From: Candidatus Woesearchaeota archaeon
GTDB lineage: Archaea > Nanobdellota > Nanobdellia > Woesearchaeales > CG1-02-33-12
Assembly (NCBI GenBank): GCA_017609385.1
Contig: JAFCEA010000005.1
Coordinates: forward strand, 1-47,511
Direction: 5' to 3'
DNA length: 47,511 nt
Made by a program: the position numbers and the translations under genes. Shown here piece after piece: positions 3,622 to 43,800 of this stretch; position 1 is the first letter of the stretch; each line of letters starts with the position of its first letter. Below the pieces are notes generated by a model that saw only the letters and a program-made list of their open reading frames with translations, had not been told where the DNA came from and did no database searches.

Positions 3622-5250
3622 TTAGTAAGAATTTCTAGGGTGCCCCCTTTTATAACCCATATAAAGAGCAGAAAGTAAAACAAAAATAAAAAATATTCCA
3701 ATCGGGATCATAAGTGAACGTATGGAAAAAGTATATTTTCTTGATTTAATCCACTCTTTTAAACTAATATTTAGTTTTGCAGGAGGATTATCTGCCTCTT
3801 CTTTTGTTATATTTGTTTCATTTATTATTGGGGGGACTACTTCTGTTCTTCCAACAACTGTAACAATTTTTTCTTGGTTTGCTTCTAATATTTGATTATA
3901 CTCAGATTCATATATAATTCTTAAATTTATTGAATAATTTTTTTTACCCACAACATCTGGAGCTGTGAAATATATATCATCGATTTTTTTATATTTTAAT
4001 GGTTTTAAATTACCTATTTTTTCTGTTATTTTTATAAAATTGGGCAGGTCACTTTCTATTATTACTTCTATATTTTTAAATGAATGTATTGGGCTTGGAT
4101 TCTTTATCTTTACTGAAATATTTGATTTTTCAGAACTTAACACCTCTTTATTAACTTTAGAGTCTATAGATAATGTCTTTCCATAAATATTTAGGCTTAT
4201 TGATTTCTCAACTTCTTTCCTAATATTATTAATTACAAATGAGGCTTTTGGCTTTAATGTATGATTTCCTATGTATTTACTTTTTAATTTTATATTGAAT
4301 AGTTTAGTCTCTCCTTTAGCTAGTTTACCTTCCCAGCTTAATTCCTTGTAATCTTGTATTAGGTATTTTGGTGGTGTTGATATGTCTAGTTCATTAGGTA
4401 TTGTTATTTTAAATGAGGTTATGGTAATGCTATTGTTATTATTTATATTTGTTAAGTTAATGTTTAGATTAGCCTCTTGACCCAACTTTACTTCATTCTT
4501 ATCCAGTGTTAAAATCATATTCAGTTGATAATCAGGGATAGTTATTGTTGAGGTATCAGAATGACTTTCTACTATTTTAACTCCATTGTTATAGCTTATA
4601 GATGCCCGCGATTTAAAGGTAGTGTTCTGCAATGCCTTGATTTTATAAGAGCATCTTTTTTCCATACCTCCCCTTAGGCTACCATGCCATTTAACAGTTC
4701 TGTGTGTACTGTTAGCATATGCAACACAATCTGATATTTGTGTAATCGCAAATGAAGAAGGGATAGGGTCTGAATAAACAATGTTAGTAGCTTCTACATT
4801 TCCTGTGTTTTTTAGGGTTACCTCTATTTTTGTCTGTTCATTAATCAAGAACTCTGTAGTTCCAACTGTTCTTGTTAATTCAATTTCTGTGGTTTCTAAA
4901 AGAAACGAGTATATTTTAATAGATGCCTTATATATATCATCATCTAATGTTGTGTTATGATACCAAAACTCTGAGTTAGTAACACATAACTCATAGTTTT
5001 CCGTGGTTTCACATGAGTCATTCTTTACAATAACATATGAATTAGTTGGTAAAGTAATAATTACCCTGTCATGGGCAGAGCTTAAACTAAAACTAAATAT
5101 TTCATTACTTATATTAATTGTATTTATTTGATTAGAATAAATAGTTCCAGAGTAGATTTCCTTTTCATCTACAGCATATGTAGATGGAATTATAATTAAT
5201 AACATAAGTGCTATATATATAAAAACCTCTTTTTGCATATCATAATACAT
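3622..5250 (-). CDS. Cell-surface protein: signal peptide, repeated beta-sandwich-like (DUF11/CARDB-like) modules, C-terminal TM anchor
   Basis: N-terminal hydrophobic segment FIYIALMLLIIIPSTYA. Repeated segments such as IEVTLKNTGNVEATNIVYSDPIPSSF and ANLNINLTNINNNNSITITSFKITIP. C-terminal TM MIPIGIFFIFVLLSALYMGY followed by basic residues. Confidence 0.55.
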   Translation of the reverse strand: MYYDMQKEVFIYIALMLLIIIPSTYAVDEKEIYSGTIYSNQINTINISNEIFSFSLSSAHDRVIITLPTNSYVIVKNDSCETTENYELCVTNSEFWYHNTTLDDDIYKASIKIYSFLLETTEIELTRTVGTTEFLINEQTKIEVTLKNTGNVEATNIVYSDPIPSSFAITQISDCVAYANSTHRTVKWHGSLRGGMEKRCSYKIKALQNTTFKSRASISYNNGVKIVESHSDTSTITIPDYQLNMILTLDKNEVKLGQEANLNINLTNINNNNSITITSFKITIPNELDISTPPKYLIQDYKELSWEGKLAKGETKLFNIKLKSKYIGNHTLKPKASFVINNIRKEVEKSISLNIYGKTLSIDSKVNKEVLSSEKSNISVKIKNPSPIHSFKNIEVIIESDLPNFIKITEKIGNLKPLKYKKIDDIYFTAPDVVGKKNYSINLRIIYESEYNQILEANQEKIVTVVGRTEVVPPIINETNITKEEADNPPAKLNISLKEWIKSRKYTFSIRSLMIPIGIFFIFVLLSALYMGYKRGHPRNSY

Positions 5251-6696: not shown

Positions 6697-6922
6697 GGGC
6701 CTGTGATCTAGTGGCTATGATGTCACCTTGACGATTTAAAAAAATCAAAATGGTGAATATCCCCGGTTCGAACAGCTTCTTGCTAAGCTGGCACGCAAAT
6801 GGTTACGCTCATTTGATACGCAAAGAGCGACATTCAATTGCTCTGCAATTGAAGTCCCTCACGCTCGCTAGCGCTCGCGAAAGTTAGAGCTCGCAAGTGC
6901 TTTGAAAGTCCGGGTGGGCCCA
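6697..6922 (+). tRNA. tRNA-Val(GAC) with two introns: 17 nt at 37/38 (6734-6750) and 136 nt at 59/60 in the T-loop (6773-6908)
   Basis: Removing both introns leaves a 73-nt cloverleaf. Acceptor GGGCCTG/TGGGCCC plus A. D arm ATCT-AGTGGCTA-TGAT. Anticodon stem TCACC/GGTGA with GAC at 6730-6732. T stem CCCGG (6762-6766)/CCGGG (6910-6914). Both introns are framed by 3-4-3 bulge-helix-bulge motifs (see findings). Confidence 0.85.
6796..6861 (+). repeat. 66-nt conserved intron module, copy 1 (inside the tRNA-Val T-loop intron)
   Basis: Identical at 65/66 positions to 43432-43497. Two predicted hairpins: cgctc/gagcg and ttcaattgc/gcaattgaa. Confidence 0.9.
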
Positions 6923-6925
6923 TGA

Positions 6926-6987
6926 CAGCTGCTTGCTCAGCTGGCACGCAGTCCAGCATAAAGCCGGACACGCTCGCTTTGCTCGCA
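6926..6987 (+). repeat. Partial paralogous copy of the tRNA-Val intron flanks, just 3' of the tRNA (GC-rich, non-coding)
   Basis: 6926-6950 cagctgcttgctcagctggcacgca versus intron 6773-6797 cagcttcttgctaagctggcacgca (23/25; the two differences are compensatory in a 6-bp hairpin). 6969-6987 cacgctcgctttgctcgca versus intron 6860-6880 cacgctcgctagcgctcgcga. Confidence 0.7.
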
Positions 6988-7032
6988 ACAAATGAAGAGG
7001 TAAATAACATCAGAAGAATAAAAGAGATTAAA

Positions 7033-8046
7033 ATGGAGATAGGTTTTTTTGAATTAAAACCTTGGGAAAAAGCCTACTTACAAAAGAAACTAAAGGGCTA
7101 TTCCTTAAAATTTTTTGAAGAACCTCTCAGCAACAATAATGTTTCTAAAGCAAAAAACTCTGATATAATCTCTGTTTTTATTTATTCAAAGATTAACAAA
7201 GATATCCTAAAAAAACTTCCGAAGCTCAAGATTATCACAACAAGGTCAACTGGCTTTGACCATATTGACCTAAAAGAGTGCAGTAAGAGGAAAATTATCA
7301 CCTGTAATATCCCTTATTACGGAGAAAACACAGTTGCAGAGCATACATTTGCCTTAATATTATCTTTATCAAGGAATATTCATAAATCATATGTAAGAAC
7401 CTTAAGGGATGATTTTTCTATTGAGGGTTTGACTGGTTTTGACCTGAAAGGAAAAACCATGGGCATTATCGGGGGAGGCCATATAGGACTGCATGTAGCA
7501 AAAATGGCTCGCGGTTTTGGAATGAATGTGCTTGTCTATGATATAAATAAGCAGAATTTCCTGGCAGAAGTAATTGGATTTAGTTATGCAAATCTTGACG
7601 AATTATTAAAGAAATCAGATATAATTTCATTGCATGTTCCATATAACAAGCACACTCACCACTTAATAAATAGGAACAATATAAAGAAGATAAAAAAAGG
7701 TGCAATCCTAATAAATACTTCTAGGGGAGGGGTGGTTGATACAAGTGCTTTACTGTATGCCCTAGAAAAGAAAATCCTAGGTGGAGCTGGTCTGGATGTA
7801 ATTGAGGGTGAAGAGCTAATAAAAGAGGAGCATGAGCTCCTTTATGAAACAGGAAATCCAGAGAAATGGAAAACCATTGTCAGGGATCACAAAATATTCC
7901 ATATGGATAATGTTGTTTTTACTCCGCATAATGCCTTCAATAGCAAAGAAGCATTAATCAGGATATTAGATACAACAATAGGGAATATAGAATCCTATTC
8001 TAATAAAAATCCTGTAAATGTTGTTAATTCACAAGAAAGGATCTAA
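7033..8046 (+). CDS. D-isomer-specific 2-hydroxyacid dehydrogenase (NAD-binding)
   Basis: Rossmann motif GIIGGGHIGLHVAKMARGFGMNVLVYD and the C-terminal FTPHNAF motif typical of the family. The track ORF starts at 6922, inside the tRNA-Val 3' end. The first plausible start is ATG 7033 (MEIGFFELKPW). Confidence 0.85.
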   Translation: MEIGFFELKPWEKAYLQKKLKGYSLKFFEEPLSNNNVSKAKNSDIISVFIYSKINKDILKKLPKLKIITTRSTGFDHIDLKECSKRKIITCNIPYYGENTVAEHTFALILSLSRNIHKSYVRTLRDDFSIEGLTGFDLKGKTMGIIGGGHIGLHVAKMARGFGMNVLVYDINKQNFLAEVIGFSYANLDELLKKSDIISLHVPYNKHTHHLINRNNIKKIKKGAILINTSRGGVVDTSALLYALEKKILGGAGLDVIEGEELIKEEHELLYETGNPEKWKTIVRDHKIFHMDNVVFTPHNAFNSKEALIRILDTTIGNIESYSNKNPVNVVNSQERI

Positions 8047-9167: not shown

Positions 9168-10661
9168 ATGAAATTAAAAGTAAAGGATATTGATATTGCA
9201 ACAGGCTGGCCCTTAGTAGCAGTACTAAATGAGCTTGATGCACTAAAACTTGATCTTCATTATGAAGACAGGCTTAAAATTAAAAAAGGAAGGAAGAGTG
9301 TTATTGCAATAATAGATATTACTGAGTCCAAAAAAGTAGTTCCAACTGGCCAAATAGGATTGTATGAGGAGGTTTTAACCAAGCTAAATGCAAAATCAGG
9401 CAATTTTGTTGATGTATCTCTTGTTGAAAAGCCTGTTTCCATACAGTATATCAAGAGGAAATTAAAAGGAAAAAAGCTTGGTTATAAGGAGATTTATAAG
9501 ATTATTGATGATATAAACAATAACAGATTAAGTGAGATAGAGATAACTTATTTTGTTTCTGCCTGCTACACAAAAGGCCTTGATCTTGATGAAACTGTTT
9601 CATTGACAAAGGCAATGATCAATACAGGAGGAATATTAAAATTGAATAAATACCCTGTAATGGACATGCATTGTATTGGGGGGGTTGCTGGAAACAGGAC
9701 AACAATGGTTGTAGTGCCAATAGTTGCTGCTGCTGGCCTGACAATTCCAAAAACATCATCAAGGAGCATAACAAGCCCTTCTGGGACAGCTGATACAATG
9801 GAGGTTTTATGTAATGTATGTTTTTCAATCAAAGAAATAAAAAATATTATTAAGAAAACAAATGCCTGTCTTATATGGGGCGGCTCTGTTAACCTTGCGC
9901 CTGCAGATGATAAGATAATAAGAATAGAGCATCCTTTATCACTTGACCCAGAGGGCCAGCTTCTGGCCAGCATTTTGGCAAAGAAAAAATCTGTTTCTGC
10001 AACACACTTACTTATTGATATACCTGTTGGCAAAGGAGCTAAGATAGAAAGCAGGAAAAAAGCACTTTACTTAAAGAGGCTTTTTGAATCAATATCAAAA
10101 AAGCTTGGAATAAAAATTAGGGTTGTAATCATAGACGGCTCTCAGCCAATAGGAAATGGCATTGGACCAGAATTAGAGGCAAGGGATGTTATGTGGGTTT
10201 TGGAAAATGATTTAAGACAGCCTCTTGATTTAAAAGAAAAATCAATTAAAATGGCTGGACTGCTTCTTGAGATGGGGGGAAAGGCAAAAAAAGGGGCTGG
10301 CACTAAAAAGGCATTGAAAATACTTAACTCAGGAGCTGCTTACAGGAAAATGATGCAAATCATAAGAGCTCAGTGCGGTAAGAAGATAAAAGCTGATGAC
10401 ATAAAGATAGGGAAATTCAGATATAACTTTAGAGCTAAGAAATCTGGTGTTGTAACCCATATAGATAATGACTCAATCTCCAAGATAGCAAGGGCTGCAG
10501 GAGCTCCACTTGACAAAGGTGCAGGAATCTACCTTCATAAGCATGTTAAGGATTCTGTTAAGAAAGGAGATAAAATATTTACAGTTTATGCTAAAAATAA
10601 GCAAAAGCTAGGTTATGCTGTTAATGTTCTCAGAAAGATAGATGGTGTTGTTGTTAAGTAA
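9168..10661 (+). CDS. deoA: AMP phosphorylase (archaeal thymidine-phosphorylase-family enzyme)
   Basis: About 500 aa with the extra N-terminal domain (MKLKVKDIDIATG...DRLKI) ahead of the glycosyltransferase-family-3 core (HCIGGVAGNRTT, TSSRSITSPSGTADTME). Confidence 0.78.
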   Translation: MKLKVKDIDIATGWPLVAVLNELDALKLDLHYEDRLKIKKGRKSVIAIIDITESKKVVPTGQIGLYEEVLTKLNAKSGNFVDVSLVEKPVSIQYIKRKLKGKKLGYKEIYKIIDDINNNRLSEIEITYFVSACYTKGLDLDETVSLTKAMINTGGILKLNKYPVMDMHCIGGVAGNRTTMVVVPIVAAAGLTIPKTSSRSITSPSGTADTMEVLCNVCFSIKEIKNIIKKTNACLIWGGSVNLAPADDKIIRIEHPLSLDPEGQLLASILAKKKSVSATHLLIDIPVGKGAKIESRKKALYLKRLFESISKKLGIKIRVVIIDGSQPIGNGIGPELEARDVMWVLENDLRQPLDLKEKSIKMAGLLLEMGGKAKKGAGTKKALKILNSGAAYRKMMQIIRAQCGKKIKADDIKIGKFRYNFRAKKSGVVTHIDNDSISKIARAAGAPLDKGAGIYLHKHVKDSVKKGDKIFTVYAKNKQKLGYAVNVLRKIDGVVVK

Positions 10662-40626: not shown

Positions 40627-43245
40627 TCAAACCTCATACCTTAGGATAGCAGCTATCTTGCCAAACTCCCTTAGCTGGATGCCCTCTCTTGTTTCTGTTG
40701 ATATTATCTTAACTGTAGTGCCAACTGTTTTTGCCAGCTTTTCCATTTCATCTATTGTATTGTCATCAAGGCTTTCTGAAAGCAATAAAGTATCTACGAC
40801 TCCAATCTCAAGGTTTTTCTTTACTTCATCAAGGCCATAGCTGACCATTCCTGGCTTTGTTGACAATAAATTAAAGAATTTTCCCATTATCTCTTTTTCA
40901 GCTGCTACCTCTTCTTTTGCCAGTACATCCTGGGATCTGTCTAATAATTCCTGCAGGCCAAATTCTTCGGTATAAGATAAATCCTTTATTGCAATTATCT
41001 TGTTTTTCACTTCTGTGGTTATATAACCCCCATCAATAAAATCATATTTTGTGGGGCCAGGGCCACCAACAATTATTCCCTTAAGATCTTTTAGTGTTAG
41101 AAACTGGTTTTTCATATATTCTGCAACCTTTTTATAGTGGTCTTTTGCAGCGCCCTCTCTTATTCTTGCAAAACGAGCTGCTGAATTATGGACAATTATT
41201 CCATTTGCTATGAAGTTTTTGTTTTTGACTGATATATCAATCATTTTTACTTTCTTATTGATTTTTTCTATCTTGTTTATCTTAATTGGAAGAATTGGAT
41301 AATTGTAAATAATCTCTAGTTGATTATACAGTTTTTTATCTTTAATATTAGATAAAATTGAATTTTTGAAAGTTTGTTTGCTCATCATTCTTTCATTTCT
41401 AAAAAAGTTATTAACTTTGGGAAACAATTCAAGATTATAGCCTGATTTTTCTATCAATTTCCTTATTTTTCTTCCTGAAACTATTATTTGTCTGGAATAG
41501 CTTGAATCTGATTTTTTATTAAGGAGAGCACTTAATTTATTAGTTTTTTCATGAAAGCTGAAACCAATGTGTTTTTTGAACAATTGAATTGATTTTTTTT
41601 CAGTTATATCAACTGTAAATCTTGGATTATTGCTATATTTATTTGCTTTATTGTCATATTCCAACAATGAACTTAAAATAGAAAACCTTAACAGTGCAAG
41701 TTGGGTATGTTGAGCCAATTTCTTATTATTTACCCCCAAGGCAATTCCTCTTTTGATATTAACATATCCATCTGCGTCAAATAATCCTCTTAAGAAAGCT
41801 GCAACAATCCCATTATCAGATTGGAGTATTTTTTTAGGGATTTCAGAATTTGAGGCTTTCCTTATTTCCAGGAATTCTTCTTTGATTAATCTAACCAATG
41901 GTCTGCTAGTAAATCTTATTTGATGGTAGTTTTTGCTTTCTCTAAATCTATAGCTGGAATTTATTTTGAAGAATTGATTGAATTTTCTCTGGTAAGTTAA
42001 CGCTAATTGTTTATTTTGCTCAAAGAAAGTAACCCTATCAGTTTCTATGCAACCATCATCTCCTATGAGATATCCTAGAAATTGAGCAAACTCTTCATTT
42101 AAACTATTTGGCAAATTTATATTTTTATACATATAAGGCTGGGTATAATCTTTTAAAAATTTATCAAAATTAATATTTAAGCTATTACACACCATTTTTA
42201 ATGGCATCCTGCATGCAGTTGATTTACCAACTTCATAACGGGAGATTGTTGTTTGTGCTAAACCTGCTTCTTCTGCTAATTGCCTTTGAAGCAATCCCTT
42301 TTTTAATCTTCTTTTCTTTAGAAATTCCTGGCCTTCTCTGGTTATGATAAAAGAATTATAATATTTTTTTGAATTTATTTCTTGTATTTTTCCTTTGATG
42401 TATATTTTTTCAGGCATTATTAGATAATCTCCCTGTTTTAATTCCTCAGCAGATTTTTCAATGATTCTTTCAGAAGTTGCTACAAAAAACAAATGATCTT
42501 TAGATGATTGAATTTCTAAACGTGGATTTTTAGTAATAATCTTGTAAATTTTGTTCTTCTTTACATTCCATTTGTCTATGATATTTGAATCAAAAATTGC
42601 AAAATTGTTCTTAATCGTAACAGACTTAATTATGTTTGGATTATGAATAGTTTCAATTTTTGGAAGAGAACCATCAGATAATTGGATTAAGGACTCATTT
42701 ACAAGACATTGTCCTCCTGCCCTTTGTTTTCCAGGCACTTGTGAATGAGTTTTAACCAAAGGGATTATTGTTTTTCCCTTTAAAAGAGCAATGTTTGCAT
42801 CTCTCCTGTCTAGTACAACAAGACCATAAACCTCTTTTGTGTCAAGCATATCTCTCAACAAATCAAGAACAAACTGCTTGTCACACCTGTATATTCGGGT
42901 ATTTAAAGGCACTGGCGGCTCTATGCTCCATACTTCCAAATCAATCTGACCTTCTCTTTCAGCAACATTTCCAGAGAAAACAGCCAAGCCATTTTTTGGT
43001 GTCTGCTTAAATAAGCGCAAGTGCTGAATCATTCTTTCAAGGCCATCTATAACATTCTTCCTTGTTGTGGCTGATTTTATGTTAGCAGCAGTCCCCTGCT
43101 CCTGTTTCAGATGGTTTATTATTTTGTTTAAGTCATATCCTGTAGGCATATACACTGTAATAAGCTCTGTGTGCGGCCTTCTGAATACCTCGAGCTTCTT
43201 GATAAATTTCTTTAGTTCATACCTTTGTTTTTCAGTTAGTGCCAT
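40627..43245 (-). CDS. prf1: Peptide chain release factor aRF1, interrupted by an intein after the GGQ motif
   Basis: NIKS motif at residues 55-58. ...VPGKQRAGGQ (res 171-179) | intein (res 180-687) | SAARFARIREGAAKDHYKKV... The C-terminus ends GKIAAILRYEV. Exteins total 364 aa. Confidence 0.92.
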   Translation of the reverse strand: MALTEKQRYELKKFIKKLEVFRRPHTELITVYMPTGYDLNKIINHLKQEQGTAANIKSATTRKNVIDGLERMIQHLRLFKQTPKNGLAVFSGNVAEREGQIDLEVWSIEPPVPLNTRIYRCDKQFVLDLLRDMLDTKEVYGLVVLDRRDANIALLKGKTIIPLVKTHSQVPGKQRAGGQCLVNESLIQLSDGSLPKIETIHNPNIIKSVTIKNNFAIFDSNIIDKWNVKKNKIYKIITKNPRLEIQSSKDHLFFVATSERIIEKSAEELKQGDYLIMPEKIYIKGKIQEINSKKYYNSFIITREGQEFLKKRRLKKGLLQRQLAEEAGLAQTTISRYEVGKSTACRMPLKMVCNSLNINFDKFLKDYTQPYMYKNINLPNSLNEEFAQFLGYLIGDDGCIETDRVTFFEQNKQLALTYQRKFNQFFKINSSYRFRESKNYHQIRFTSRPLVRLIKEEFLEIRKASNSEIPKKILQSDNGIVAAFLRGLFDADGYVNIKRGIALGVNNKKLAQHTQLALLRFSILSSLLEYDNKANKYSNNPRFTVDITEKKSIQLFKKHIGFSFHEKTNKLSALLNKKSDSSYSRQIIVSGRKIRKLIEKSGYNLELFPKVNNFFRNERMMSKQTFKNSILSNIKDKKLYNQLEIIYNYPILPIKINKIEKINKKVKMIDISVKNKNFIANGIIVHNSAARFARIREGAAKDHYKKVAEYMKNQFLTLKDLKGIIVGGPGPTKYDFIDGGYITTEVKNKIIAIKDLSYTEEFGLQELLDRSQDVLAKEEVAAEKEIMGKFFNLLSTKPGMVSYGLDEVKKNLEIGVVDTLLLSESLDDNTIDEMEKLAKTVGTTVKIISTETREGIQLREFGKIAAILRYEV
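41185..42708 (-). mobile_element. Intein (508 aa): Hint splicing domain + XRE-type HTH + LAGLIDADG homing endonuclease
   Basis: Block A CLVNESLIQLSDGS (Cys1), block B SSKDHLFF (SxxH), LAGLIDADG motifs FLGYLIGDDGC and FLRGLFDADGYV, terminal IIVHN followed by the +1 Ser. HTH LLQRQLAEEAGLAQTTISRYEVGKS (nt about 42160-42333). Confidence 0.88.
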
Positions 43246-43316: not shown

Positions 43317-43324
43317 TTTAAATA
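43317..43324 (+). promoter_or_regulatory. Putative archaeal TATA box (TTTAAATA) for tRNA-Pro
   Basis: TTTAAATA lies 29-36 nt upstream of the tRNA-Pro 5' end. Confidence 0.45.
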
Positions 43325-43352
43325 ATGCCCCAATCCCCCAAAATAAATAGTT

Positions 43353-43539
43353 GGGGCTGTAGGGTAGCTTGGTTCATCCTTTCTGGTTTGGGTTGTTAAA
43401 ACACAAGAAACCAGACGACCCCGGTTCAAACCAAATGGTTACGCTCATTTGATACGCAAAGAGCGACATTCAATTGCTTTGCAATTGAAGTCCCTCAAGT
43501 TCATTACGCTCACCAGTTGTGAAAGTCCGGGCAGCCCCA
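43353..43539 (+). tRNA. tRNA-Pro(UGG) with two introns: 17 nt at 37/38 (43393-43409) and 95 nt at 59/60 in the T-loop (43431-43525)
   Basis: The spliced product is a 75-nt cloverleaf. Acceptor GGGGCTG/CAGCCCC plus A. Anticodon stem TCTGG/CCAGA with TGG at 43389-43391 and G37. T stem CCCGG (43420-43424)/CCGGG (43527-43531). Both introns are framed by 3-4-3 BHB motifs. Confidence 0.85.
43432..43497 (+). repeat. 66-nt conserved intron module, copy 2 (inside the tRNA-Pro T-loop intron)
   Basis: 65/66 identical to 6796-6861. The single difference is t43479 versus c6843, in a hairpin loop. Confidence 0.9.
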
Positions 43540-43563
43540 GTTTATGGTAATATAAGAAACAAA

Positions 43564-43800
43564 ATGGCAAAAGTCAAGGGTTTAGGGTCCATTAAAAGAT
43601 TTGGATCAAGGTATGGAAGAACAGTCAAGCTAAAACTTGCTAAGATTGAAAAGGAGCAGAGAAAAAAGCATAAGTGCCCGTACTGCAATAGCTTGCAGGT
43701 CAAAAGGGTGGCTGTTGGAATATGGTTCTGCAAGAAATGCAAGACTAAGTTCACTGGAAAGGCCTATACTCTTGCAAAAGAAGAGAAGAAGGTGCTCTAA
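43564..43800 (+). CDS. rpl37ae: Ribosomal protein eL43 (L37Ae)
   Basis: MAKVKGLGSIKRFGSRYGRTVK...CPYCNSLQVKRVAVGIWFCKKCKTKFTGKAY. The track ORF start (43519) lies inside the tRNA-Pro 3' exon; ATG 43564 is the real start. Confidence 0.9.
   Translation: MAKVKGLGSIKRFGSRYGRTVKLKLAKIEKEQRKKHKCPYCNSLQVKRVAVGIWFCKKCKTKFTGKAYTLAKEEKKVL

What the first reader, a model, noticed from the sequence alone, without database searches (positions are those of the whole stretch)
43431..43525. 95-nt intron at the same 59/60 T-loop site in tRNA-Pro, with the same BHB geometry
The T stem is cccgg 43420-43424 / ccggg 43527-43531. The inner 4-bp helix is ttca (43425-43428) pairing with tgaa (43520-43523), all Watson-Crick. 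The bulges are aac (43429-43431) and agt (43524-43526), the same sequences as in tRNA-Val. A 3-bp outer helix follows (caa 43432-43434 with ttg 43517-43519). The fourth helix pair is A-U here and G-U in tRNA-Val. The anticodon-loop intron is again 17 nt (43393-43409) with a BHB: tttg 43387-43390 pairs with caag 43404-43407, with bulges ggt and aaa. Two tRNAs with identical two-intron architecture suggest a lineage-specific, actively maintained arrangement.
Basis: partly seen in the sequence, partly recalled or inferred. Interest (0 to 1): 0.7.

Follow-up and report, generated by a model that had tools for sequence, protein, structure and literature searches.

The report
Repeat-filled T-loop intron in tRNA-Pro
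A proline tRNA gene of an uncultured Woesearchaeota archaeon is interrupted twice, and its long second intron, at a known T-loop site, is a copy of a small hairpin repeat that also sits in other tRNAs' introns and between genes.

Summary
Removing 43393-43409 (17 nt, site 37/38) and 43431-43525 (95 nt, site 59/60) from 43353-43539 gives a clean 75-nt tRNA-Pro(UGG). Standard tRNA finders miss the unspliced gene.

The organism is a 33% G+C Woesearchaeota (DPANN) archaeon. All 11 distinct orthologous tRNA-Pro genes upstream of the L37Ae gene carry a 59/60 intron of 21-150 nt. The central helix is kept through compensatory changes (TTCA/TGAA, TTCG/CGAA), except for an A.C mismatch in two distant loci. 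The site is therefore old and maintained. The anticodon-loop intron is not universal.

That core is one module of a mosaic of hairpin modules. It also fills the 59/60 introns of tRNA-Ser(GCU) and tRNA-Ser(UGA), and related modules fill that of tRNA-Glu. Copies also lie outside tRNAs, in both orientations. No Rfam family, virus, plasmid or transposase matched.

Caveats: no splicing evidence was available, and thermodynamic folding of this gene prefers a decoy pairing over the T-loop motif. BHB introns at 59/60 and intron spread between tRNAs are known. The repeat-filled, partly ultra-conserved intron is a new variant.

The parts
43318..43325 (+). Putative archaeal TATA box (TTTAAATA) of the tRNA-Pro gene, about 28 nt upstream of the first tRNA base
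   Evidence: Read directly from the sequence. The block AAAGATTTAAATA is conserved in orthologs and is duplicated in tandem in L022. Promoter function is inferred.
43353..43392 (+). tRNA-Pro exon 1: acceptor 5' strand, D arm, anticodon stem 5' strand and loop positions 32-37, with anticodon TGG at 43389-43391
   Evidence: It is 100% identical in L004, L019 and L022.
43393..43409 (+). Intron 1: 17 nt at the canonical 37/38 site, with a BHB (TTTG 43387-43390 with CAAG 43404-43407; bulges GGT and AAA; inner helix TGT/ACA)
   Evidence: It is identical in six close orthologs. Its absence in L032, L033 and L035 fixes the junction.
43410..43430 (+). tRNA-Pro exon 2: position 38, anticodon stem 3' strand, 4-nt variable loop, T stem 5' strand and T-loop positions 54-59 (TTCAAA)
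43431..43525 (+). Intron 2: 95 nt at the 59/60 site in the T loop, with an hBHBh' motif
   Evidence: An intron occupies the same site in 11 of 11 orthologous loci.
43432..43467 (+). Module B1 (CAAATGGTTACGCTCATTTGATACGCAAAGAGCGAC). It contains the small hairpin CAAATGG/TCATTTG. Its first 7 nt also form the outer BHB helix with 43513-43519.
   Evidence: It is identical to 6796-6831 in the tRNA-Val intron. It is 97-100% identical in orthologs. The hairpin comes from RNAalifold.
43461..43496 (+). Module B2: long irregular hairpin GAG-C-GAC-A-TTCAATTGC / GCAATTGAA-GTC-C-CTC with a 3-nt loop
   Evidence: It is 98.6% paired across 14 variants, with three compensatory double changes.
43499..43513 (+). 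Degenerate module C (GTTCATTACGCTCAC; consensus GCTCGCT-n-GCTCGC). It contains the decoy GTTCA, which competes for TGAA.
43520..43525 (+). 3' end of intron 2: TGAA, the partner of T-loop positions 54-57, followed by AG, the first two bases of the 3' bulge
43526..43539 (+). tRNA-Pro exon 3: T60, T stem 3' strand, acceptor 3' strand and discriminator A. CCA is not encoded.
6697..6922 (+). tRNA-Val(GAC) with the same architecture: 17-nt intron at 6734-6750 and 136-nt 59/60 intron at 6773-6908. The long intron is made of module A 6774-6796, B1 6796-6831, B2, C 6863-6878 and an extra C-like unit.
6927..6988 (+). Third copy of the repeat, outside any tRNA: module A, the hairpin GTCCAGCATAAAGCCGGAC and module C. 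It lies between the tRNA-Val 3' end and the 2-hydroxyacid dehydrogenase gene.
   Evidence: It is 87% identical over 63 nt to an intergenic copy in L015.

Best explanation
The region 43353-43539 is a functional, twice-interrupted tRNA-Pro(UGG) gene of a Woesearchaeota (DPANN) archaeon.

Proposed mechanism (inferred):
1. The gene is transcribed from its own TATA promoter.
2. The precursor presents two bulge-helix-bulge motifs, one in the anticodon loop and one in which T-loop bases 54-57 pair with the intron's 3' end.
3. The archaeal splicing endonuclease EndA cuts at 43392|43393, 43409|43410, 43430|43431 and 43525|43526.
4. An RtcB-type ligase joins the exons and probably circularises the introns. 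CCA is then added.

The 59/60 intron site is ancestral in this group. The 95 nt now occupying it are a copy of a modular hairpin repeat (modules B1, B2 and a degenerate C). That repeat also forms the 59/60 introns of tRNA-Val, tRNA-Ser(GCU) and tRNA-Ser(UGA), with related modules in tRNA-Glu. It also occurs in spacers outside tRNA genes. The intron therefore acts as a spliced-out safe site for a spreading repeat, and the repeat's own ends supply the pairings the BHB needs.

Shown: the gene structure, the motif, its conservation, the homology of introns between different tRNAs, the copies outside tRNAs and the hairpin covariation. Inferred: the splicing, the enzymes, the mobility of the repeat and its mechanism.
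For: - In-silico splicing gives a canonical tRNA-Pro(UGG). After removal of the 59/60 intron, ARAGORN called a tRNA at all 17 candidate loci tested.
- The BHB geometry is exact.
- Eleven of 11 distinct orthologous tRNA-Pro loci carry a 59/60 intron of 21-150 nt, with L37Ae identity down to 65%.
- The helix pair at position 57 appears as A-U 9 times, G-C 6 times and G-U 3 times.
- Exons and the anticodon-loop intron are 100% conserved. The 5' flank is 57-83% identical and the L37Ae coding sequence 86-90%.
- The Pro and Val introns share 65 of 66 nt. A 41-nt piece occurs only at these two sites in the window, with none expected by chance.
- A 20-mer from the core found 22 true loci in metagenomes and Woesearchaeota/Nanoarchaeota genome bins. 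Nineteen are sense-oriented 59/60 introns of four different tRNAs. Three lie outside tRNAs, two of them inverted.
- Module combinations differ between orthologous sites. Further partial copies lie in spacers of contig L015.
- The B2 hairpin shows compensatory changes.
- EndA cleavage at BHB motifs and circularisation of tRNA introns are established biology (PMC4090602, PMC12558985).
Against: - No RNA data were available, so splicing and a mature tRNA are unobserved.
- For this gene the minimum-free-energy fold lacks the T-loop BHB. The double-BHB fold costs 7.2 kcal/mol more, the central helix has about 0.03 probability, and an internal GTTCA pairs with TGAA at 0.65-0.83 probability.
- The outer helix is out of register or weak in several relatives, so some copies would need a broad-specificity endonuclease. 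I did not identify one.
- I found no transposase, no target-site duplication and no clean terminal inverted repeats. Mobility is inferred only from distribution.
- Module B1 is as conserved as the exons. A merely selfish repeat does not explain that.
- The loci were largely collected through the core itself, so counts are biased.
Confidence: 0.75

Rival explanations
1. The long intron is not mainly a selfish repeat. It carries a functional RNA. Module B1, perhaps with B2, would be released as a stable and probably circular intron RNA, or would act in cis as a protein-binding scaffold or folding aid for the pre-tRNA. This would be analogous to the box C/D guide RNA in the tRNA-Trp intron.
For: - B1 is 97-100% identical between orthologs whose neighbouring coding DNA is only 86-90% identical. 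It is nearly invariant in four different host tRNAs.
- Nineteen of 22 B1 hits are sense-oriented and start at intron position 1-2 or just after module A.
- Wobble pairs in the hairpins are G.U on the tRNA-sense strand.
- tRNA introns are circularised in archaea (PMC12558985).
Against: - There are no C or D boxes, and no Rfam family matched even at E-values up to 10.
- Orthologous introns in other relatives lack B1 entirely (L026, L030, L032-L035) and still keep the site.
- B1-B2-C occurs inverted next to tRNA-Val in L025 and L013, and antisense to genes in L015.
- Apparent invariance is inflated because the copies were found with an exact 20-mer from B1.
Confidence: 0.2
2. The whole intron moves as a unit between T loops, as in the intron transposition proposed for Thermoproteales. 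The extragenic copies would be by-products. Spread could occur by gene conversion through the shared GGTTCRAA...TCC flanks, or by an RNA-level route.
For: - The same B1-B2-C intron, with the same 3' end (T/C)GAAAG, sits at exactly 59/60 in Pro, Val, Ser(GCU) and Ser(UGA), although their T stems differ.
- In the window's clade the intron ends (CAAATGG...TGAAAG) differ completely from the TAGCC...GGGCTGCGAAAG ends of more distant orthologs. This suggests replacement rather than insertion into an older intron.
- Contig L011 joins a tRNA-Ser 5' part to a tRNA-Pro 3' part inside the core.
Against: - Modules also combine independently. Module A appears before or inside B1, B1 can be absent, and extra hairpin-plus-C units occur.
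- The modules occur in spacers without any T-loop flank.
- Extragenic copies show no circular-junction sequence (GAAAG joined to CAAATGG), which argues against a circular-RNA intermediate.
- L011 may be an assembly collapse.
Confidence: 0.3
3. The locus is a tRNA pseudogene disrupted by an insertion, and a separate intact gene supplies tRNA-Pro(UGG).
For: - Standard tRNA finders do not call it.
- Folding prefers a structure without the BHB.
Against: - Exons are 100% conserved, and the promoter block is conserved.
- The interruption lies at the same site in 11 of 11 orthologs, with compensatory changes that keep the helix.
- The spliced product has no defects.
Confidence: 0.03

Closest known systems
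Non-canonical bulge-helix-bulge tRNA introns of Archaea, including site 59/60 and multi-intron tRNAs (Marck and Grosjean 2003; Sugahara et al. 2008; reviewed in PMC4090602, PMC4033280, PMC8450103)
   Same: It has two 3-nt bulges separated by a 4-bp helix, with the splice sites defined by the motif rather than by position. Site 59/60 is listed among the known sites. There are two introns in one tRNA.
   Different: The host is a Woesearchaeota (DPANN) lineage, not Crenarchaeota or Thaumarchaeota. The 59/60 site appears fixed in tRNA-Pro across the group. The intron is long (95-150 nt) and built from repeat modules. I know of no published description of these introns in this lineage. PMC5829648 notes only that DPANN tRNA sets are incomplete and often disrupted.
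[quoted passage not shown] 2010, as cited in PMC4033280 and PMC4090602)
   Same: Near-identical introns sit in non-orthologous tRNAs at the same position. The mechanism is unknown.
   Different: Here the shared sequence is a mosaic of hairpin modules that also occurs outside tRNA genes and in both orientations. One module is conserved as strongly as the exons. I could not read the original paper, so the comparison rests on reviews.
Box C/D guide RNA inside the tRNA-Trp intron of Euryarchaeota
   Same: It is a long, conserved, structured tRNA intron that could have a life after excision.
   Different: There are no C or D boxes and no Rfam match. The site is the T loop rather than the anticodon loop.
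Bacterial REP/BIME mosaic elements and MITEs
   Same: The modules are short imperfect palindromes combined in variable mosaics. They lie in intercistronic spacers with a consistent orientation, and the occupants of orthologous sites turn over.
   Different: The host is archaeal. No RAYT or Y1 transposase, clean terminal inverted repeats or target duplication were found. Many copies lie inside spliced tRNA introns.

Membership tests
Archaeal BHB tRNA intron (non-canonical site 59/60) | Removal of the insert restores a canonical cloverleaf tRNA | tested here: met
   ARAGORN calls a 75-nt tRNA-Pro(UGG) after in-silico splicing. After removal of the 59/60 intron alone, ARAGORN called a tRNA at all 17 candidate loci tested.
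Archaeal BHB tRNA intron (non-canonical site 59/60) | A 4-bp central helix flanked by two 3-nt bulges on opposite strands, with the splice sites after the second base of each bulge | tested here: met
   TTCA/TGAA with bulges AAC and AGT. The cuts at 43430|43431 and 43525|43526 fall after bulge base 2.
Archaeal BHB tRNA intron (non-canonical site 59/60) | Flanking helices on both sides (h, exon-exon; h', intron-intron, at least 2 bp) | tested here: met
   h is the 5-bp T stem. h' is CAA/TTG, extendable to 6 of 7 pairs. h' is weak or out of register in several relatives.
Archaeal BHB tRNA intron (non-canonical site 59/60) | The motif is conserved with compensatory changes in homologs | tested here: met
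   Across 18 distinct T arms the pair at position 57 is A-U 9 times, G-C 6 times and G-U 3 times. My scan required this pairing, so the 100% pairing figure is partly by construction, although the loci themselves were collected without reference to the motif. L033 and L034, read by hand and not among the 18, have an A.C mismatch at that pair.
Archaeal BHB tRNA intron (non-canonical site 59/60) | The motif is the predicted stable fold of the precursor | tested here: not met
   For this gene the BHB fold costs 7.2 kcal/mol more than the MFE for the full precursor and 2.6 kcal/mol more for the T arm alone. The helix probability is 0.03-0.04. Among 19 family members the helix probability is at least 0.5 in 10, and the BHB fold equals the MFE in 4. 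This feature supports membership but does not define the family, because the enzyme binds and stabilises the motif.
Archaeal BHB tRNA intron (non-canonical site 59/60) | Cleavage by EndA and ligation by RtcB; mature tRNA present in cells | not testable with these tools
   No RNA data were available. No EndA or RtcB gene is present in the window.
Transposed tRNA-intron families (Fujishima et al. 2010) | Near-identical intron sequences in non-orthologous tRNA genes at the same position | tested here: met
   Pro and Val share 65 of 66 nt. The same core is found in Ser(GCU) and Ser(UGA).
Intron-encoded box C/D sRNA | Box C (RUGAUGA) and box D (CUGA) forming a kink-turn, plus guide regions | tested here: not met
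   Reading the intron sequence shows no such boxes. No C/D family reached significance at E-values up to 10.
MITE | Terminal inverted repeats and a target-site duplication | tested here: not met
   The only terminal complementarity is an imperfect 7-nt pairing (CAAATGG with CCAnTTG), which doubles as the BHB outer helix. No duplication is visible at extragenic copies.
REP/BIME-type mosaic palindromic repeats | Short imperfect palindromes in variable mosaic combinations at extragenic sites | tested here: met
   Modules A, B1, B2, alternative hairpins, C and D occur in different orders and numbers. Module copies lie in spacers of L015.
REP/BIME-type mosaic palindromic repeats | An associated RAYT or Y1 transposase in the genome | not tested
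   Only ORFs of the window and of L015 were scanned, and they contain none. No whole genome was available.
Self-splicing group I or group II intron | A catalytic core recognisable by covariance models | tested here: not met
   No Rfam match. At 95 nt it is too short, and it has no ORF.

The most novel reading that the evidence does not exclude
These Woesearchaeota carry a family of small modular hairpin elements that spreads between tRNA T loops and intergenic DNA, and that survives inside essential tRNA genes because its ends recreate the BHB splice motif. This would be the first traceable vehicle for archaeal tRNA-intron gain. One module, B1, would be held invariant because the excised and probably circular intron RNA, or its DNA, has a function in its own propagation or in pre-tRNA processing.
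Probability: 0.3. Interest if true: 0.75.

Novelty: new variant of a known kind. Interest (0 to 1): 0.5.

Why it matters
- Annotation: standard tools miss these genes. This probably contributes to the 'incomplete' tRNA sets reported for DPANN archaea (PMC5829648). Any tRNA with a long T-loop intron will be scored as absent in these genome bins.
- Intron gain: how archaeal tRNA genes acquire introns has been open since intron transposition was proposed, and reviews state that the mechanism is unknown (PMC4090602). Here the same sequence sits inside several tRNAs' introns and outside tRNAs, in populations sampled many times. Presence/absence polymorphisms and intermediates can therefore be looked for directly.
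- The 59/60 intron of tRNA-Pro is fixed across a wide span of Woesearchaeota. That raises the question of whether it is merely tolerated or serves a purpose, for example ordering T-loop folding or modification.

Tried and rejected
- ARAGORN and Rfam at gathering threshold on the raw window did not find the gene. This motivated the in-silico splicing.
- Rfam at E-values up to 10 on both intron regions gave only chance-level hits: a microRNA, a CRISPR repeat and snoRNAs, all far below threshold. I rejected a known RNA family, including box C/D.
- Viral contig scans with the B1 20-mer and with module A gave 0 hits. blastn of 6773-6990 against plasmids and phages gave no match. I rejected a recognisable viral or plasmid origin.
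- Pfam scans of 30 window ORFs and 10 L015 ORFs found no transposase, integrase, EndA or RtcB.
- I looked for a circular-intron junction or a target duplication at extragenic copies and found neither.
- I considered that the reverse strand of extragenic copies encodes a small protein. The module C spacer varies by lengths that are not multiples of three, and B2 varies by compensatory pairs, so I rejected this.
- I considered an H-type pseudoknot in B1 (CAAATG/CATTTG together with CGCTC/GAGCG). B1 varies too little to test it.
- Looking up the 78-aa L37Ae by exact sequence found nothing, because the gene is called with an upstream GTG start that overlaps the tRNA.
- The Fujishima 2010 paper is not held.
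- One 20-mer hit, L017, is a chance match.

Full report
**1. What is at the coordinates**

The window has 33% G+C. Reading 43353-43539 gives:
- acceptor stem GGGGCTG/CAGCCCC with discriminator A
- D arm
- anticodon stem TCTGG/CCAGA, with loop TTTGGG...A
- 4-nt variable loop
- T stem CCCGG/CCGGG

Two inserts interrupt it: 43393-43409 (17 nt, between positions 37 and 38) and 43431-43525 (95 nt, between positions 59 and 60). Removing both inserts gives a 75-nt, 60% G+C sequence that ARAGORN calls as tRNA-Pro(UGG) with a normal cloverleaf. ARAGORN and the Rfam tRNA model do not find the unspliced gene.

The companion tRNA-Val(GAC) is at 6697-6922. It has a 17-nt anticodon-loop intron (6734-6750) and a 136-nt 59/60 intron (6773-6908), with the same bulges and a G.U pair in the central helix.

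**2. Organism and context**

Neighbouring genes are archaeal housekeeping genes:
- aRF1, here with an intein
- aIF5A, L37Ae, an RPAB4-like zinc ribbon, Pcc1, prefoldin beta and a DRG GTPase
- SRP54, ThrRS and glycogen metabolism genes

L37Ae homologs are named Woesearchaeota or Nanoarchaeia. The genome records that share the intron core are Woesearchaeota/Nanoarchaeota genome bins. A few are bins labelled Methanosarcinales, with 33-38% G+C over the stretches held and, in L022 and L023, the same gene order around the tRNA. These are probably mis-binned. Two JGI contigs carry the tRNA-Pro gene and its immediate flanks with identical sequence.

**3. Is the 59/60 intron real and maintained?**

I collected orthologous loci through the L37Ae gene immediately downstream, without using the motif. 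All 11 distinct tRNA-Pro(UGG) genes carry an insert at 59/60. This holds down to 65% L37Ae identity and in a much more G+C-rich relative. The insert lengths are 95, 95, 94, 95, 142, 150, 30, 42, 51, 31 and 21 nt.

The central helix is kept while its sequence changes: TTCA/TGAA, TTCG/CGAA, TTCG/CGAG and TTCA/TGGA. Two distant loci, L033 and L034, have an A.C mismatch (TTCA/CGAA). Across 18 distinct T arms, including Val, Ser, Glu and others, the pair at position 57 is A-U 9 times, G-C 6 times and G-U 3 times. My scan required that pairing, so only the compensatory pattern counts as evidence, not the 100% pairing.

In close relatives the exons and the 17-nt intron are 100% identical. The 5' flank is 57-83% identical and the L37Ae coding sequence 86-90%. 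The anticodon-loop intron is absent in L032, L033 and L035, which fixes its junction. It is a different 29- or 31-nt sequence in L030 and L034. So the T-loop site is the ancient, fixed feature, and the two-intron architecture holds only for the window's close clade.

**4. Thermodynamics**

For this gene the minimum-free-energy fold (-63.9 kcal/mol, z = -4.0) keeps the acceptor, D, anticodon and T stems but not the T-loop central helix. Forcing both motifs costs 7.2 kcal/mol. The helix has about 0.03 probability. An internal GTTCA (43499-43503, inside the degenerate module C) pairs with TGAA at 0.65-0.83.

In T-arm-only substrates the cost is 2.6 kcal/mol for this gene. Among 19 family members the motif is the minimum-free-energy fold in 4, and the helix probability is at least 0.5 in 10. 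I treat this as a real weakness of this copy. It does not refute the intron, because the endonuclease binds and stabilises the motif and the comparative signal is strong.

**5.

Aligning the Pro and Val precursors shows a 66-nt block, CAAATGG...CCCTCA, with 65 identities. The anticodon-loop introns are not alike, and the exons differ outside the shared T arm. A 41-nt piece occurs only at those two places in the window, with none expected by chance.

A 20-mer from the block found 15 true loci in metagenomes and 7 in reference genomes. One further hit is a chance match. Nineteen of the 22 are sense-oriented 59/60 introns of four different tRNAs: Pro(UGG), Val(GAC), Ser(GCU) and Ser(UGA). The other three are:
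- an inverted copy just 3' of tRNA-Val (L013 and L025)
- a copy in a spacer between protein genes (L015)

**6. Anatomy of the repeat**

Comparing copies resolves these modules:
- A: the AGCTnCTTGCTnAGCT hairpin followed by GGCACGC. It shows a T-A to G-C compensatory change between 6774 and 6927.
- B1: 36 nt, containing the small hairpin CAAATGG/TCATTTG.
- B2: a 15-bp irregular hairpin with a bulged A. It is 98.6% paired in 14 variants, with three compensatory double changes, and most other changes lie in the loop.
- Alternative hairpins in place of B2, such as GTCCAGCATAAAGCTGGAC or GGGCATTGAATT...AATTCAAGCCC.
- C: GCTCGCT-n(1-4)-GCTCGC.
- D: a T-rich tail, seen in extragenic copies.

Orthologous introns hold different combinations. 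The tRNA-Pro intron is B1-B2-C in the window, L004, L019 and L022. It is A-B2-C plus another hairpin in L026. It is a B1 fragment, A, a hairpin, C, another hairpin and C in L029.

The site between tRNA-Val and the next gene holds different occupants in different genomes:
- a full A-B2-C unit in L008 and L021
- only C in L006, L020 and L023
- an inverted B1-B2-C in L013 and L025
- A, a hairpin and C in the window at 6927-6988

The 11-kb contig L015 contains at least five full or partial copies, the three best resolved lying in spacers between ATPase-type genes; all are antisense to the genes there. In the window itself the only copies are the two introns and the tRNA-Val flank.

**7. What it is not**

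- No Rfam family matches, even at E-values up to 10. There are no C or D boxes.
- There are no viral, plasmid or phage matches.
- No transposase, integrase, EndA or RtcB is present in the window or in L015.
- Extragenic copies show no target duplication and no circular-junction signature.

**8. Interpretation**

The best-supported reading has four parts.

1. The locus is a working tRNA-Pro gene whose precursor is cut at two BHB motifs and re-ligated. This is standard archaeal splicing. Site 59/60 is a listed non-canonical site (PMC4090602), and tRNA introns are circularised at BHB motifs (PMC12558985).
2. The 59/60 site is ancestral in these Woesearchaeota.
3. The present 95-nt content is a copy of a spreading mosaic hairpin repeat.
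4. The repeat's ends (CAAATGG at the 5' end; CCAnTTG followed by TGAAAG at the 3' end) provide the outer and central helices, so insertion is tolerated.

I cannot decide whether whole introns move between T loops, as proposed for Thermoproteales (Fujishima 2010, known to me only through PMC4033280 and PMC4090602), or whether modules insert singly. The intron ends in the window's clade differ completely from those of more distant orthologs, which favours replacement of the whole intron. The independent assortment of modules favours piecemeal change.

The strongest unexplained fact is that B1 is conserved like an exon and is found mostly at the 5' end of sense-oriented introns. That leaves room for a functional intron RNA or a protein-binding site. 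I rate that rival at about 0.2.

**9. Comparison and novelty**

BHB introns at 59/60, multi-intron tRNAs and similar introns shared between different tRNAs are all known from Crenarchaeota and Thaumarchaeota. DPANN tRNA sets are reported as often disrupted and incompletely predicted (PMC5829648).

In the papers I could search, I found no description of the following:
- a T-loop intron fixed in tRNA-Pro across Woesearchaeota
- long introns built from a mosaic repeat that also lies outside tRNAs in both orientations
- a module within that repeat under exon-like conservation

I therefore class the finding as a new variant of a known kind, of moderate interest. Its main value is that it offers a concrete system for studying how archaeal tRNA introns are gained. 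It also shows why these genes are missed by annotation.

Noticed in passing
window 40627-43245 (- strand): The aRF1 gene is 872 aa long because an intein with LAGLIDADG and HTH domains is inserted directly after the catalytic GGQ motif (...RAGGQ|CLVNE...VHN|SAARF...). Orthologs in L026, L028, L029 and L034 are 364-366 aa and have no intein.
   Followed up: partly
window 6927-6988: A third copy of the repeat (module A, the hairpin GTCCAGCATAAAGCCGGAC and module C) lies between tRNA-Val and the 2-hydroxyacid dehydrogenase gene. The longest ORF for that gene (6922-8046) runs through it. The true start is probably the ATG at 7034.
   Followed up: partly
L025 7622-7700 and L013 1464-1545: An inverted B1-B2-C copy lies immediately 3' of tRNA-Val, at the site that holds other module combinations in relatives. 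This is a clear occupant polymorphism at one orthologous site.
   Followed up: partly
L011 (whole contig, 2193 nt): The contig joins the 5' part of tRNA-Ser(UGA) to the 3' exon of tRNA-Pro and L37Ae, exactly within the shared intron core. This is either an assembly collapse across the repeat or a real recombinant.
   Followed up: no
L007 (1395-nt contig, - strand): Four tRNA genes lie in a row: Val (94-nt 59/60 intron), Gly(GCC) with no intron, a tRNA with anticodon loop CTTATAA and a 20-nt 59/60 intron, and Glu(UUC) with a 139-nt mosaic 59/60 intron plus an anticodon-loop intron. T-loop introns seem very common in this lineage.
   Followed up: partly
L034 about 1330-1400, and L032 about 3840-3880: The distant tRNA-Pro orthologs may carry further introns. 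L034 has an extra insert in the D-arm region (a possible third intron). In L032 the acceptor 5' strand reads GAAGCTG, with a GGGGC about 35 nt upstream.
   Followed up: no
window 43519-43800 (+ strand): Gene callers start L37Ae at a GTG inside the tRNA-Pro 3' end, giving 93 aa. The real start is probably the ATG at 43564 (78 aa). Many homologs in the database are similarly over-extended into the tRNA, at 92-137 aa.
   Followed up: partly
L022, about 60 nt upstream of tRNA-Pro: The promoter block (ATTTAAATACGGCCCATATTCCCCTTGTTTA) is duplicated in tandem.
   Followed up: no
L022, L023 and L024 (records JAFCBX01 and CAYOHL01): These genome bins are labelled Methanosarcinales but have 33-38% G+C over the stretches held. 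L022 and L023 also have Woesearchaeota-type gene order around the tRNA. They are probably mis-binned contigs.
   Followed up: no
L015 rc 1063-1230 and rc 10247-10420: In this contig the repeated unit extends about 110 nt beyond module C. It runs through a T-rich module D to a conserved GGTGAG ribosome-binding site and an ATG on the opposite strand, so the repeats there may be part of larger duplicated cassette junctions.
   Followed up: no
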